Shown piece by piece: positions 40,787-48,598 of a stretch of DNA of 48,598 nt. Positions within the stretch are counted from its first letter, which is position 1. Every line of letters begins with the position of its first letter. This DNA comes from Candidatus Saccharimonadales bacterium (GTDB lineage: Bacteria; Patescibacteriota; Microgenomatia; Curtissbacterales; GWA2-41-24). The DNA is taken from positions 1 through 48,598 of the forward strand of contig DATIHT010000093.1 of assembly GCA_035480415.1 (NCBI GenBank). Reading direction: 5' to 3'. A model generated the notes under the pieces. It worked only from the letters and a program-made list of their open reading frames with translations, had not been told where the DNA came from and did not search any database. Position numbers and translations under genes: made by a program.

Positions 40787-41308
40787 AAAGAAACTAGTTA
40801 TTCAGAAAATTGAAATTCGTAATGGATAGTAGAAATTTCGAAAATGGAAAATATAAACCTATTAAAAGCTTTCAGGACTTAGTTGTTTATCAAAATTTAT
40901 ATAGAGCTATGGTGATTGTATTAACACAAATCATTCCATTTTTACCAAATGAGGAAAAATTTGATCTGGTTGACCAAATGAGAAGGGCATGCAAGGCTGG
41001 GCCAGCTCTAATCGCAGAAGGCTTCGCGAAACGATACCAAATACGTCAATGGCGAAAATATTTAAACGACACAATAGGCGAATCAAATGAAATGGTTCAT
41101 CATTTGTCGGTGTGCATAGATATTTACAAAAAATATATTGATGTAAAATTGTGTAAAGAGGTCATTGAAATTTACGACACAACATGCAAACAATTAACAA
41201 AGCTCGGTCAAGCATGGCAGGATTATCATGCTAATGATAAATAACACTAATGTCTAATTTCAATTTTCTATTACCAATTTCAAATATCAAAATAACTAAT
41301 TTCTAAAC
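40787..41308 (+). mobile_element. candidate IVS-like palindromic cassette carrying a four-helix-bundle gene
   Basis: Inverted arms: AGAAACTAGTTATT-7nt-TTGAAATTCGTAAT (40789-40823) against ATTACCAATTTCAA-7nt-AATAACTAATTTCT (41270-41304). ORF-less relatives occur elsewhere in the window. Mobility is inferred, not shown. Confidence 0.35.
40822..41244 (+). CDS. four-helix-bundle protein (23S rRNA intervening-sequence protein / Avd family)
   Basis: FQDLVVYQNLY...DQMRRACKAGPALIAEGFAKR...YLNDTIGESNEMVHHL is the characteristic pattern of this family. ATG 40822 (track TTG 40810). Confidence 0.8.
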   Translation: MDSRNFENGKYKPIKSFQDLVVYQNLYRAMVIVLTQIIPFLPNEEKFDLVDQMRRACKAGPALIAEGFAKRYQIRQWRKYLNDTIGESNEMVHHLSVCIDIYKKYIDVKLCKEVIEIYDTTCKQLTKLGQAWQDYHANDK

Positions 41309-48062: not shown

Positions 48063-48169
48063 AATCTCACCTCCTATTCCTAGTTTAAACTTTTACAAAT
48101 AAATATCAAATGTGCGTTAAAAATATGTAAGAGAACGATAAAAGAAAATCGTGATAAAATACTCAAGTT

Positions 48170-48226
48170 ACTTTGCGGGATCGCCCGCCTGCAACGCTAT
48201 GCGTAGCATTGCGGGCAGGTCTAATG
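48170..48226 (+). repeat. 57-nt direct repeat R1 (interrupted mimic of the tRNA-Gln 5' end)
   Basis: Identical to 48465-48521. Reads TTTGCGGGATCG + 36-nt hairpin + TCTAATG. Confidence 0.95.
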
Positions 48227-48228
48227 GA

Positions 48229-48465
48229 ATGTACTATACATATGTACTAAAAAGTTCTAGGGACGGAAATTTGTATATTGGCTGGACCAATAATCTCGAA
48301 AGTAGGGTAAATTTACACAACAGCGGTAAAGTTTTTGCTACCAAAAGTAGAGTTCCTTTTACACTCGTTTACTACGAGGCTTGCCTAACCAAAGAAAAGG
48401 CTGTACAAAGAGAAAAACAATTGAAAACCGGTTTTGGAAGAGCTTATTTAAAAAGAAGAATATAA
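48229..48465 (+). CDS. GIY-YIG nuclease-family small protein
   Basis: MYYTYVLKSSRDGNLYIGWTNNLESRVNLHNSGK...LVYYE...REKQLK is the UPF0213/GIY-YIG pattern. The track's N-terminal extension (48151-48228) only translates repeat R1. Confidence 0.8.
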   Translation: MYYTYVLKSSRDGNLYIGWTNNLESRVNLHNSGKVFATKSRVPFTLVYYEACLTKEKAVQREKQLKTGFGRAYLKRRI

Positions 48466-48521
48466 CTTTGCGGGATCGCCCGCCTGCAACGCTATGCGTA
48501 GCATTGCGGGCAGGTCTAATG
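48465..48521 (+). repeat. 57-nt direct repeat R2
   Basis: Identical to R1. Starts on the last base of the GIY-YIG stop codon and ends 5 nt before tRNA-Gln. Confidence 0.95.
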
Positions 48522-48526
48522 TTTTT

Positions 48527-48597
48527 TGCGGGATCGTCTAATGGCAGGACAGCAGCCTTTGGAGCTGCTTATCTAGGTCCGAATCCTAGTCCCGCAG
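48527..48597 (+). tRNA. tRNA-Gln (anticodon UUG)
   Basis: Manual cloverleaf: acceptor TGCGGGA/TCCCGCA (U1-A72, discriminator G as in bacterial tRNA-Gln), D-stem GTCT/GGAC, anticodon stem GCAGC/GCTGC with loop CTTTGGA, T-arm CTAGG-TCCGAAT-CCTAG. It abuts the window end. Confidence 0.8.
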
Positions 48598-48598
48598 C

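What the first reader, a model, noticed from the sequence alone, without database searches (positions are those of the whole stretch)
48170..48597. GIY-YIG gene bracketed by perfect 57-nt repeats that are interrupted copies of the 5' end of the adjacent tRNA-Gln
48170-48226 and 48465-48521 are identical: ACTTTGCGGGATCG / CCCGCCTGCAACGCTATGCGTAGCATTGCGGGCAGG / TCTAATG. The outer parts reproduce the leader plus nt 1-10 (TGCGGGATCG) and nt 11-17 (TCTAATG) of tRNA-Gln, which starts at 48527. The central 36 nt is a near-perfect hairpin (loop TGCG) inserted exactly where the D-arm begins. Copy 1 ends 2 nt before the ATG of a 78-aa GIY-YIG protein. Copy 2 begins on the last base of that gene's stop codon and ends 5 nt before the tRNA. 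The layout is therefore repeat, nuclease, repeat, tRNA, with a 295-nt period. Perfect identity implies recent duplication or gene conversion. The tRNA mimicry suggests one of two things. A minimal GIY-YIG mobile unit may target the tRNA gene and duplicate its 5' part. Alternatively, tRNA-like processing signals may release the nuclease mRNA and the tRNA from one transcript. I do not know of a described element with this architecture.
Basis: partly seen in the sequence, partly recalled or inferred. Interest (0 to 1): 0.7.

Follow-up and report, generated by a model that had tools for sequence, protein, structure and literature searches.

The report
Nuclease-plus-hairpin cassette lodged in tRNA gene
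A tiny nuclease gene and a conserved 36-base hairpin sit inside a duplicated front end of a tRNA gene, and this apparently undescribed layout recurs next to dozens of different tRNA genes in ultra-small (CPR) bacteria, so it looks like a selfish element that rebuilds the gene it invades.

Summary
It is one instance of a widespread architecture. I examined 80 relatives of the 78-aa GIY-YIG gene from species-representative genomes, mostly CPR/Patescibacteria. In 65 of them a same-strand tRNA starts within 60 nt of the stop codon, usually 0-10 nt, and 19 anticodons are represented. Most remaining loci are also tRNA-linked. In about 60 loci the first 14-33 nt of that same tRNA recur just upstream of the ORF. 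That upstream copy is split after nt 6-22 by a GC-rich hairpin, which can lie in either orientation. The tRNA promoter lies upstream of the fragment. The fragment matches the genome's own tRNA (4.6% mismatch, against 24% for other loci). Tandem units occur, and the window's second 57-mer is an ORF-less unit. A second GIY-YIG family (47% identical) shows the same layout with a different hairpin module of its own.

The 36-mer is not tRNA-specific. It occurs in at least 120 metagenome contigs, mostly solo, like a REP/MITE-type palindrome. Covariation shows that each strand can fold into the same shape.

Best reading: a minimal Slx1-like nuclease plus hairpin mobile cassette that regenerates its tRNA target and is expressed from the tRNA promoter. 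The insertion chemistry is unknown. I found no published description.

The parts
48152..48160 (+). Extended -10-like promoter element TGATAAAAT, 13 nt upstream of the tRNA-derived fragment. It is the presumed original tRNA-Gln promoter and would now drive fragment, hairpin, nuclease gene and tRNA together.
   Evidence: Read directly from the sequence. The motif TGnTAnAAT lies within 45 nt upstream of the fragment in 15/46 related loci. It occurs in 0.8% of random windows and in 1/46 regions just before the intact tRNA. The strict sigma-70 scan did not call it.
48170..48183 (+). Unit 1, left part: 4 nt of leader (ACTT) plus a copy of tRNA-Gln nt 1-10 (TGCGGGATCG).
   Evidence: 0 mismatches to the tRNA.
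48184..48219 (+). Hairpin module HP, copy 1: CCCGCCTGCAACGCTATGCGTAGCATTGCGGGCAGG. It is a 36-nt GC-rich (67%) imperfect palindrome inserted between tRNA nt 10 and 11.
   Evidence: The same 36-mer is present in 12 of the GIY-seeded loci, in both orientations, and in at least 120 metagenome contigs. Covariation is shown.
48220..48227 (+). Unit 1, right part: a copy of tRNA-Gln nt 11-18 (TCTAATGG).
48229..48465 (+). 78-aa minimal GIY-YIG nuclease gene of the Slx1/UPF0213-like type, stop codon included. The public record annotates it as 88 aa, starting at an ATG inside the hairpin (48199).
   Evidence: Pfam PF01541, E = 5e-17. The closest solved structures are UPF0213 BH0048 and EF2693. There are 1387 relatives with invariant Y, Y-G, R, H and E positions. 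P0001 and the in-frame ATG are shown.
48465..48478 (+). Unit 2, left part: leader ACTT (the A is the last base of the stop codon) plus tRNA-Gln nt 1-10.
48479..48514 (+). Hairpin module HP, copy 2, identical to copy 1.
48515..48526 (+). Unit 2, right part: tRNA-Gln nt 11-17 (TCTAATG) and a TTTTT spacer. This unit has no ORF.
   Evidence: ORF-less units between nuclease gene and tRNA also occur in L020 and L079, where the spacer keeps a remnant resembling the ORF's 3' end.
48527..48598 (+). Intact tRNA-Gln(UUG), the regenerated target gene. The window ends at its 3' end, but the contig continues.

Best explanation
The locus is a selfish cassette lodged in the 5' part of the tRNA-Gln gene. It has three components:
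- a catalytic-domain-only GIY-YIG nuclease gene of the Slx1/UPF0213 type (78 aa);
- a conserved 36-nt structured palindrome (HP);
- a duplication of the tRNA's 5' segment.

The layout is promoter, then tRNA nt 1-10, HP, tRNA nt 11-18, the nuclease ORF and the complete tRNA. The displaced 5' segment keeps the promoter and becomes the 5' UTR of the nuclease mRNA. A complete tRNA is regenerated immediately after the stop codon, so the essential gene survives.

Inferred steps:
- Both genes are made from one transcript. RNase P cutting at the 5' end of the intact tRNA separates the tRNA from the mRNA.
- Because the target is regenerated, it can be hit again, or units can multiply by out-of-register recombination after nuclease-induced breaks. 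This gives tandem arrays. The window's second 57-mer is such a second unit without an ORF.
- HP is a mobile module in its own right. It is dispersed, REP/MITE-like, inserts precisely without target duplication in either orientation, and often lands in loops of other hairpins.
- I infer, with less confidence, that HP is the cognate DNA structure recognised by the nuclease. The nuclease would mobilise HP in the way RAYT transposases relate to REP elements.

The strand-cleavage and joining chemistry is not known.
For: Shown by tool results:
1. In 65 of 80 relatives a same-strand tRNA starts between -47 and +58 nt from the stop codon, mostly 0-10 nt, and 19 anticodons are represented. Seven more loci have an extra unit in between. 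Two have tRNAs that only Rfam finds. Two are cut by contig ends. One precedes a tmRNA and one precedes 23S rRNA.
2. In about 60 loci the tRNA's own 5' nucleotides recur upstream of the ORF, split by a hairpin after nt 6-22 and resuming to nt 14-33.
3. Fragments match their own tRNA (4.6% mismatch, 20/44 perfect), against 23.7% mismatch to same-anticodon tRNAs of other loci.
4. Hairpin-like sequences in the 444 kb of GIY-seeded loci: 65 of 77 lie within 120 nt upstream of a GIY start, 10 lie just downstream, and 2 lie elsewhere.
5. The same tRNA species is hit at different positions and in both hairpin orientations, which implies many independent events.
6. L024 carries two 297-nt units that are 100% identical. 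Arrays also occur, or break contigs, in L003 and L050 and in L205-L207.
7. In 15/46 loci an extended -10 motif lies upstream of the fragment, against 1/46 before the intact tRNA.
8. A second GIY-YIG family has the same layout at tRNA-Gln in 6/6 loci. It carries a different, family-specific double hairpin always after nt 21, with compensatory changes.
9. HP is conserved far better than the ORF: an identical 36-mer occurs where proteins are only 65-78% identical. It also covaries in two mirror-image helices.
10. HP also exists nested inside other hairpins, precisely and without duplication.

Precedent: the phage T6 GIY-YIG endonuclease SegB cuts in tRNA genes and drives recombination-dependent tandem amplification of a tRNA-plus-segB unit (PMC13096335; PMC2330249).
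Against: - No empty orthologous site could be shown, so mobility is inferred from distribution only.
- Sampling by hairpin shows that most HP copies have no nuclease gene nearby (4 of 122) and lie in contigs of 32-65% GC. HP could therefore be moved by something else.
- Within family 1, nuclease similarity barely tracks hairpin subtype (Mantel r = 0.05, p = 0.28; class test 1.3% identity difference, p = 0.01).
- Three family-2 loci share dnaX upstream, so part of the spread is vertical.
- A 78-aa catalytic domain has no evident DNA-recognition domain.
- The duplicated segment has variable ends: the left end, as read by eye on the printout, lies at roughly -11 to +1, and the right end at nt 14-33. 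No known transposition chemistry predicts this.
- The second unit of the window cannot be derived from a full unit by one simple deletion.
- Nuclease activity, co-transcription and RNase P processing are all untested.
Confidence: 0.55

Rival explanations
1. There are two unrelated parasites. The GIY-YIG gene is a homing-endonuclease-like cassette that duplicates the tRNA 5' end. HP is an independent REP/MITE-like palindrome moved by some other enzyme. HP merely colonises the dead tRNA fragment because it is one of the few neutral, hairpin-prone sites in these compact genomes.
For: - Most HP copies are solo and far from any GIY-YIG gene.
- HP inserts into loops of unrelated hairpins and into heptamer arrays.
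- Pseudo-tRNA fragments carrying HP exist without a nuclease gene (L084, L120, L167, L177).
- Co-diversification of nuclease and hairpin within family 1 is weak.
- L042 appears to have a fragment without HP (by-eye reading of the printout; the automated searches did not call it).
Against: - About 81% of family-1 genes have HP 5-30 nt upstream, while only 2 of 77 hairpins lie elsewhere in the same 444 kb.
- Fragments that still look young (perfect matches to the tRNA) already carry HP.
- A different nuclease family carries a different hairpin module at the equivalent place in 6/6 loci.
Confidence: 0.27
2. The arrangement is a host operon rather than a mobile element. The small nuclease would be a housekeeping factor co-expressed with tRNAs. 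The upstream tRNA-like fragment plus hairpin would be a regulatory or processing leader, for example an mRNA 5' stabiliser or a structure that senses the tRNA.
For: - Position relative to the promoter and tRNA is conserved.
- Fragments are kept identical to the resident tRNA, as if constrained.
- The hairpin folds stably in either orientation.
- A fusion of a prokaryotic Slx1-like domain to a tRNA Gm18 methyltransferase has been reported (PMC1564403).
Against: - There are several copies per genome at different tRNAs (L002 and L012 come from one assembly).
- Identical tandem copies and ORF-less units occur.
- Insertion points and hairpin orientation vary within one tRNA species.
- Non-tRNA targets exist, including a duplicated 5' end of an epimerase gene (L048).
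- Hairpins are nested in hairpins.
- Contigs break at these sites.
Confidence: 0.08
3. The second 57-mer is an assembly artefact. The real locus would have one fragment-hairpin unit, the nuclease gene and the tRNA.
For: - The 57-nt repeat is as long as typical short-read k-mers.
- Related loci often sit at contig ends or next to runs of N.
- The organism is represented by a single assembly.
Against: - The junction TCTAATG-TTTTT-TGCGGGATCG is a novel sequence that a single-unit locus does not contain.
- Equivalent ORF-less second units occur in independent assemblies (L020 and L079).
Confidence: 0.05

Closest known systems
Phage T4/T6 SegB, a free-standing GIY-YIG homing endonuclease in the tRNA gene cluster
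   Same: - It is a GIY-YIG nuclease gene placed next to tRNA genes.
- It cleaves within tRNA gene DNA (PMC2330249).
- It promotes recombination-dependent tandem amplification of a unit made of a tRNA gene plus the nuclease gene, with microhomology between the tRNA 5' end and the nuclease gene's 3' end (PMC13096335).
   Different: - SegB is a multi-domain phage protein (its size is from my own knowledge; the paper text read only mentions a 28-aa C-terminal truncation). The window protein is a 78-aa catalytic domain of the Slx1/UPF0213 branch in bacterial chromosomes.
- SegB has no associated conserved hairpin and no split 5' fragment of the tRNA upstream.
Free-standing GIY-YIG or LAGLIDADG endonuclease genes in fungal mitochondria that insert at gene ends and carry a replacement copy of the displaced terminus (for example Allomyces atp6; recalled from my own knowledge, not checked here)
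   Same: The invaded gene stays functional because the cassette brings or creates a second copy of the gene's terminal segment. The displaced fragment remains as a partial duplicate.
   Different: - Those cases involve 3' ends of protein-coding genes in organelles, and the ORFs are often fused in frame.
- Here the target is the 5' end of tRNA genes (one case at a protein gene, L048), the duplicate matches the resident gene rather than a foreign donor, and a hairpin splits the fragment.
REP elements and their RAYT transposases (REPtrons); MITE-like palindromes in general
   Same: - A short GC-rich imperfect palindrome is dispersed in many solo copies.
- Nearly every copy of the enzyme gene has one next to it.
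- The structure is conserved more than the surrounding sequence.
   Different: - The neighbouring enzyme is a GIY-YIG nuclease, not a HUH/Y1 transposase.
- The palindrome usually lies on one side of the gene only.
- The exact 36-mer is shared by contigs of very different base composition.
- The link between enzyme and palindrome is inferred, not shown.
Integrase-driven genomic islands and prophages that integrate into tRNA genes
   Same: The element is bounded by a partial copy of the tRNA gene, and an intact tRNA is regenerated at the junction.
   Different: - Those elements duplicate the 3' part, are kilobases long and encode tyrosine or serine recombinases.
- This unit is 295 nt, duplicates the 5' part and encodes only a nuclease. 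Related loci also hold a mirror-image 3' type with a different GIY-YIG gene.
Non-intron insertion sequences encoding GIY-YIG proteins in rRNA genes of CPR bacteria (PMC11270868)
   Same: They occur in the same group of organisms and involve GIY-YIG ORFs inside or next to structured-RNA genes without intron features. One relative here lies just upstream of 23S rRNA (L049).
   Different: Those are described as insertions within rRNA genes, scattered over sites and judged by the authors to be outside homing. The passages of that paper that I searched (GIY-YIG, 'tRNA gene', 'palindrom') mention neither tRNA genes nor palindromes.

Membership tests
GIY-YIG nuclease superfamily, minimal Slx1/UPF0213 (YhbQ-like) branch | Match to the GIY-YIG catalytic domain profile above the curated threshold | tested here: met
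   PF01541, 62.3 bits against a cut-off of 22.6, E = 5e-17, covering residues 1-69.
GIY-YIG nuclease superfamily, minimal Slx1/UPF0213 (YhbQ-like) branch | Conserved motif residues (Tyr of GIY, Tyr-x-Gly of YIG, Arg, His, Glu) | tested here: met
   Among 33 relatives the invariant positions are Y3, T4, Y5, Y16, G18, R26, H30, Y48, E50, R61, E62 and others.
GIY-YIG nuclease superfamily, minimal Slx1/UPF0213 (YhbQ-like) branch | Nearest solved relatives are the stand-alone bacterial Slx1-like proteins, and there is no auxiliary domain | tested here: met
   Hits are 1zg2 (UPF0213 BH0048, E = 8e-7) and 1ywl (EF2693). These two are placed in the bacterial Slx1 family in PMC1564403. The protein is 78 aa.
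GIY-YIG nuclease superfamily, minimal Slx1/UPF0213 (YhbQ-like) branch | Nuclease activity | not testable with these tools
   This needs purified protein.
Free-standing homing endonuclease gene | Nuclease ORF outside any intron or intein, at a fixed position relative to a conserved host gene | tested here: met
   No intron family was detected. The ORF ends 0-10 nt before a tRNA in most of the 80 loci.
Free-standing homing endonuclease gene | Presence/absence polymorphism at orthologous sites (empty alleles) | tested here: inconclusive
   The neighbour protein used to find orthologous loci has no homologue, and the collection scans were exhausted. Different insertion points within one tRNA species imply independent events.
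Free-standing homing endonuclease gene | A DNA-binding module that gives a long specific recognition site | tested here: not met
   Only the 78-aa catalytic domain is present. The insertion points span tRNA nt 6-22 with no common sequence.
Free-standing homing endonuclease gene | Cleavage of the cassette-free allele followed by copying of the cassette | not testable with these tools
   This needs an experiment.
REP/RAYT-type system (dispersed palindrome plus its enzyme) | Short imperfect palindrome present in many dispersed, mostly intergenic copies | tested here: met
REP/RAYT-type system (dispersed palindrome plus its enzyme) | Enzyme gene flanked by the palindrome | tested here: met
   In the GIY-seeded loci, 65 hairpin copies lie within 120 nt upstream of a GIY start and 10 lie just downstream. 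A distinct family carries a distinct module.
REP/RAYT-type system (dispersed palindrome plus its enzyme) | HUH/Y1 transposase | tested here: not met
   The adjacent ORF is GIY-YIG, and no other ORF fits in the 295-nt unit.
Integrase-type tRNA-targeting integrative element | Partial tRNA duplicate at one border and an intact tRNA at the other | tested here: met
   The 5' part is duplicated here rather than the 3' part.
Integrase-type tRNA-targeting integrative element | Tyrosine or serine recombinase gene within the element | tested here: not met
   The unit is 295 nt and holds one 78-aa nuclease ORF.
tRNA intron (group I, or bulge-helix-bulge type) | Interrupts the functional gene copy and must be removed from the RNA | tested here: not met
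   An uninterrupted tRNA follows. The interrupted copy ends at nt 17-18. No intron model matches even at E up to 10.

The most novel reading that the evidence does not exclude
The hairpin and the small nuclease form a previously unknown kind of DNA mobility system. In it, a structure-specific Slx1-like GIY-YIG nuclease is directed by DNA (or RNA) shape rather than by a protein recognition domain.

The tRNA-matching arms on either side of the hairpin would pair with the intact tRNA gene. The hairpin would be forced out as a three-way junction, and the nuclease would cut there. That cut would seed copying of hairpin, nuclease gene and a renewed tRNA 5' end.

This would explain three observations:
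- the arms are kept identical to the resident tRNA;
- each nuclease family has its own hairpin;
- both strands of the hairpin fold alike.
Probability: 0.15. Interest if true: 0.9.

Novelty: new variant of a known kind. Interest (0 to 1): 0.75.

Why it matters
If the reading holds, CPR bacteria carry a very compact selfish element of about 300 nt. It invades essential tRNA genes at their 5' end, keeps them alive by regenerating the gene, and borrows their promoter.

The result bears on four points:
- It gives a concrete genomic role to the stand-alone bacterial Slx1/UPF0213 nucleases, a family for which my searches found no established function.
- It explains why small "GIY-YIG / excinuclease ABC subunit C" genes recur in CPR genomes (at least 487 pattern-matched loci) and why contigs break near tRNA genes.
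- It identifies a 36-nt structured palindrome, conserved to the base across very different genomes, whose mobilising enzyme can now be tested.
- It matters for annotation. Gene callers extend these ORFs into the hairpin, and tRNA fragments can be miscalled.

Tried and rejected
- Known RNA family for the repeat: none. Rfam found only the tRNA, at gathering thresholds and at E up to 10.
- Simple palindrome model of the hairpin centre: rejected. Pairs in the full-palindrome register are mostly broken in variants, while two shifted registers covary.
- General target-site duplication for hairpin insertion: rejected. Flank matches are at chance for k = 5, 6, 9 and 10. Only k = 7 is enriched (10/112), which reflects heptamer arrays.
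- Hairpin generally sitting inside a host stem: only a weak signal with a strict test, although individual cases are clear.
- Co-diversification of nuclease and hairpin within family 1: not significant or very weak.
- Strong clustering of nucleases by tRNA type, as simple vertical descent or homing would predict: only weak (r = 0.11, p = 0.01).
- Phage vehicle: the 36-mer is absent from IMG/VR contigs, and phage relatives of the protein are distant (52% identity or less).
- Empty-site comparison through the downstream neighbour gene: failed, because the gene is an orphan.
- Strain comparison of contigs carrying identical family-2 proteins: it showed only identical sequence or contig ends inside arrays.
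- Strict sigma-70 and terminator scan of the window end: it did not call the extended -10 motif and found no terminator.
- A 14/16 match to the tRNA 3' end at window 17688: a chance hit inside a 532-aa ORF.
- Literature: six full-text searches, including the hairpin sequence itself, found no description of this architecture.
Full report
**1. The observation**

The sequence is as described.
- Positions 48170-48226 and 48465-48521 are identical over 57 nt, 295 nt apart.
- The central 36 nt occur only at these two places in the 48.6-kb window, with none expected by chance.
- tRNA-Gln(UUG) occupies 48527-48598 (ARAGORN; Rfam 57.9 bits).
- The parts flanking the hairpin equal tRNA nt 1-10, and nt 11-17 (11-18 in copy 1), without mismatch.
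- The ORF at 48229-48465 encodes 78 aa with a GIY-YIG domain (PF01541, E = 5e-17).
- Its nearest solved relatives are the stand-alone bacterial UPF0213 proteins BH0048 and EF2693. These are classed as minimal prokaryotic Slx1-like nucleases (PMC1564403).

The window is part of a 64-kb contig of a metagenome-assembled genome (CAZUYT010000001.1). The public gene call (88 aa) starts at an ATG inside the hairpin.

**2. The layout is general**

I built an alignment of 33 relatives and scanned one genome per species. That gave 487 loci, of which I fetched the best 80. They are mostly CPR/Patescibacteria assemblies.
- In 65 of 80, a tRNA gene on the same strand begins between -47 and +58 nt from the stop codon, usually 0-10 nt. 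Nineteen anticodons are represented.
- Of the other 15, seven have an extra unit or a second nuclease gene in between.
- Two have a tRNA that only Rfam detects (L056, L075).
- Two have a tRNA cut by the contig end (L060, L069), and L050 runs into a tandem unit at the contig end.
- One precedes a tmRNA and one precedes 23S rRNA.
- One precedes a protein gene whose 5' end is duplicated upstream (L048).
- One has no such neighbour (L034).

In about 60 loci, the first nucleotides of that same tRNA recur just upstream of the ORF. They are interrupted after nt 6-22 (mostly in the D arm) by a GC-rich hairpin of 35-77 nt, and they resume up to nt 14-33. The start codon follows within 0-30 nt. The window's unit is a typical member.

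**3. Where transcription starts**

An extended -10 motif (TGnTAnAAT) lies within 45 nt upstream of the fragment in 15 of 46 loci. It occurs in 0.8% of random windows and once in the 45 nt before the intact tRNA. The window has TGATAAAAT at 48152-48160.

With only 0-10 nt between stop codon and tRNA, the simplest reading is a single transcript covering fragment, hairpin, nuclease mRNA and tRNA, with RNase P releasing the tRNA. This is an inference.

**4. The fragments are local**

Fragments differ from their own tRNA at 4.6% of positions, and 20 of 44 are perfect. The part before the hairpin has 5 mismatches in 44 loci. Fragments differ at 23.7% of positions from tRNAs with the same anticodon in other loci.

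This holds although the nuclease proteins are only about 62-83% identical to each other. It also holds for idiosyncratic tRNAs such as those of L007 and L039. Three explanations remain open:
- the duplicate is made from local sequence at each insertion;
- it is homogenised by gene conversion;
- it is functionally constrained.

**5. Independent events and arrays**
- Within tRNA-Gln alone, the hairpin sits after nt 7, 10, 12 or 17-18, and in both orientations.
- Nuclease similarity clusters only weakly by tRNA type (r = 0.11, p = 0.01).
- L024 has two 297-nt units that are 100% identical.
- L003 has two different nuclease genes in series. L050 breaks inside an array.
- L020 and L079, like the window, have a second unit without an ORF. 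In L079 the spacer keeps what looks by eye like a remnant of the ORF's 3' end.

I therefore read the window's second 57-mer as a second, ORF-less unit in a short tandem array. It cannot be derived from a full unit by one clean deletion, because its spacer is TTTTT rather than a suffix of the ORF.

**6. The hairpin is a module of its own**
- The identical 36-mer is present in 12 of the nuclease-seeded loci, 8 in one orientation and 4 in the other. Overall, 41 hairpins lie in one orientation and 16 in the other.
- Variants keep a 9-bp outer stem with a conserved C.A and a T.G pair.
- Variants covary in two mutually exclusive inner helices that mirror each other under reverse complementation. The plain palindromic register is broken in the centre. 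Each DNA strand can therefore adopt the same shape. This fits an element that must work in either orientation, or as an extruded or single-stranded DNA structure.
- Some hairpins carry another hairpin inserted precisely in their centre, with no duplication (L003, L026, L030).

Sampling by hairpin instead of by nuclease changes the picture.
These contigs have 32-65% G+C.
- Only 4 of 122 copies adjoin a family-1 nuclease ORF, and 9 of 121 lie within 300 nt of a tRNA.
- Flanks show no general target duplication. Ten of 112 have 7-nt direct repeats, against 0.6 expected, because these copies sit in degenerate heptamer arrays.
- Several copies lie in the loops of other palindromes.
- Pseudo-tRNA fragments with the hairpin but without a nuclease gene also exist (L084, L120, L167, L177).
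- The hairpin is absent from viral contigs, from Rfam and from the searchable literature.

**7. Are nuclease and hairpin partners?**

Evidence for:
- In 444 kb around family-1 genes, 65 of 77 hairpin-like sequences lie within 120 nt upstream of a nuclease start, 10 lie just downstream and 2 lie elsewhere.
- The asymmetry resembles REP elements and their RAYT genes: nearly every nuclease gene has a hairpin, while few hairpins have a nuclease gene.
- A second family gives the strongest support. It was seeded from the second ORF of L003, which is 47% identical to the window protein. It shows the same architecture at tRNA-Gln in six of six loci. Its module is different: two small hairpins, TCGCCTCATCGGCGA and CCTGCCGAAGAGGCAGG, with compensatory variants, always after tRNA nt 21.

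Evidence against:
- Within family 1, nuclease and hairpin subtypes hardly co-vary.
- Three family-2 loci share dnaX upstream, so part of that pattern is inherited.
- Solo hairpins vastly outnumber linked ones.

I rate the partnership as likely but unproven.

**8. Mechanism: what is shown and what is inferred**

Shown:
- the anatomy of the unit and its recurrence;
- the position of the promoter motif;
- the local origin of the fragments;
- the tandem units;
- the independence of the hairpin, its structure and its family-specific association.

Inferred:
- The nuclease breaks DNA at or near hairpin-prone tRNA gene DNA.
- Repair or insertion yields the cassette plus a regenerated tRNA.
- The regenerated target allows repeated events or out-of-register recombination, producing arrays.
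- The nuclease mobilises the hairpin.

A precedent exists. The phage T6 GIY-YIG endonuclease SegB, long known to cut in tRNA genes (PMC2330249), drives recombination-dependent tandem amplification of a 718-bp tRNA-Tyr-plus-segB unit. That unit shows microhomology between the tRNA 5' end and the segB 3' end (PMC13096335).

The ends of the duplicated segment vary. The left end, read by eye on the printout, lies at roughly -11 to +1, and the right end at nt 14-33. This fits imprecise recombination plus selection for an intact tRNA better than a fixed staggered cut.

**9. Comparison with known systems**

The protein is a member of the GIY-YIG superfamily, Slx1/UPF0213 branch. The element resembles several known kinds but does not fit any of them:
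- It works like a free-standing homing endonuclease cassette, but it lacks a recognition domain. Empty alleles could not be shown.
- It resembles integrase-type tRNA-targeting islands in regenerating the tRNA. However, it duplicates the 5' end, is 295 nt long and has no recombinase.
- It resembles fungal mitochondrial endonuclease genes that carry a replacement gene terminus (from my own knowledge, unchecked).
- Its hairpin resembles REP elements, but the enzyme is not a HUH transposase.
- It is not a tRNA intron.

CPR rRNA genes are known to hold non-intron insertions that encode GIY-YIG proteins (PMC11270868). In six literature searches I found no description of the tRNA 5'-end architecture, of the hairpin or of the family-specific pairing.

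**10. Verdict**

The finding is real and is the visible tip of a widespread, apparently undescribed element class in CPR bacteria. I file it as a new variant of known kinds: homing-endonuclease-like cassettes and REP-like palindromes. There is a modest chance (about 0.15) that the hairpin-nuclease pair represents a new, structure-directed mobility mechanism. Interest: 0.75.

Noticed in passing
L001 10401-10519 (the same contig, starting immediately after the window's last base): About 100 nt after the tRNA-Gln there is a second copy of its 3' end (ATCCTAGTCCCGCAGC, 16/16). It is preceded by a degenerate T-arm interrupted by an AT-rich hairpin (CCACAATTAGTTACTAATTGTGG). The tRNA therefore has partial duplicates on both sides.
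   Followed up: partly
L002, L019, L052, L077 and L038, downstream of the intact tRNA: A mirror-image 3' type exists. A distant GIY-YIG ORF (30-46% identical) lies between the intact tRNA and a duplicated 3' fragment that begins in the T loop. It is preceded by a conserved ...CCGAAGG(G/A) end, and its termini can pair. In all, 12 of 70 loci have a 3' duplicate within 500 nt.
   Followed up: partly
L082, L096, L101, L117, L122, L136, L145, L146, L165, L186, L191 and L192 (hairpin-seeded metagenome loci): Solo copies of the 36-mer often sit at unit boundaries inside arrays of degenerate 7-nt tandem repeats, such as CATCCAA, GTTATCG, GAATTTG and TAGTTTG. Ten of 112 have 7-nt direct-repeat flanks, against 0.6 expected. 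Whether the arrays are footprints of repeated insertion and excision or a preferred target is unknown.
   Followed up: partly
L135, L141, L176 and L183: The 36-mer is inserted in another recurrent palindrome, GTCATTCCCG^CGAAAGCGGGAATCC, at the same point in four different contigs.
   Followed up: no
L048 2700-3096: This locus has a non-tRNA target. Upstream of the nuclease ORF lies a diverged copy (my estimate roughly 70% identical) of the first ~14 codons of an NAD-dependent epimerase-like gene (MKTVATGGAGFIGS), split by a hairpin. The complete gene starts 5 nt after the nuclease stop codon.
   Followed up: no
L080 3277-3639; L049 3278-3355: In L080 the hairpin abuts the 5' end of a tmRNA gene (Rfam 103 bits), downstream of the nuclease gene. 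In L049 the nuclease gene and hairpin lie between tRNA-Ala and the start of 23S rRNA.
   Followed up: partly
window 48199-48228: The hairpin contains an ATG that is in frame with the nuclease ORF. Gene callers therefore extend the protein into the hairpin: 88 aa in the public record, and many relatives are listed at 88-125 aa. This is probably an annotation artefact.
   Followed up: partly
L205-L207, 1050-1330: Downstream of a tRNA-Gln there are tandem units, each made of a spacer, the family-2 double hairpin and tRNA nt 22-76. Scaffold gaps and contig ends fall inside the array.
   Followed up: partly
window 40822-41244 (L001 2624-3046): A free-standing gene has a 23S rRNA-intervening-sequence protein domain (PF05635). 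This is another gene type often linked to insertions in structured-RNA genes of these bacteria.
   Followed up: no
L167 and L177: Nearly full-length decayed tRNA copies lie just upstream of the intact gene and carry several different hairpin insertions. In L167 the 36-mer replaces nt 16-38 and a second hairpin sits in the T loop.
   Followed up: no
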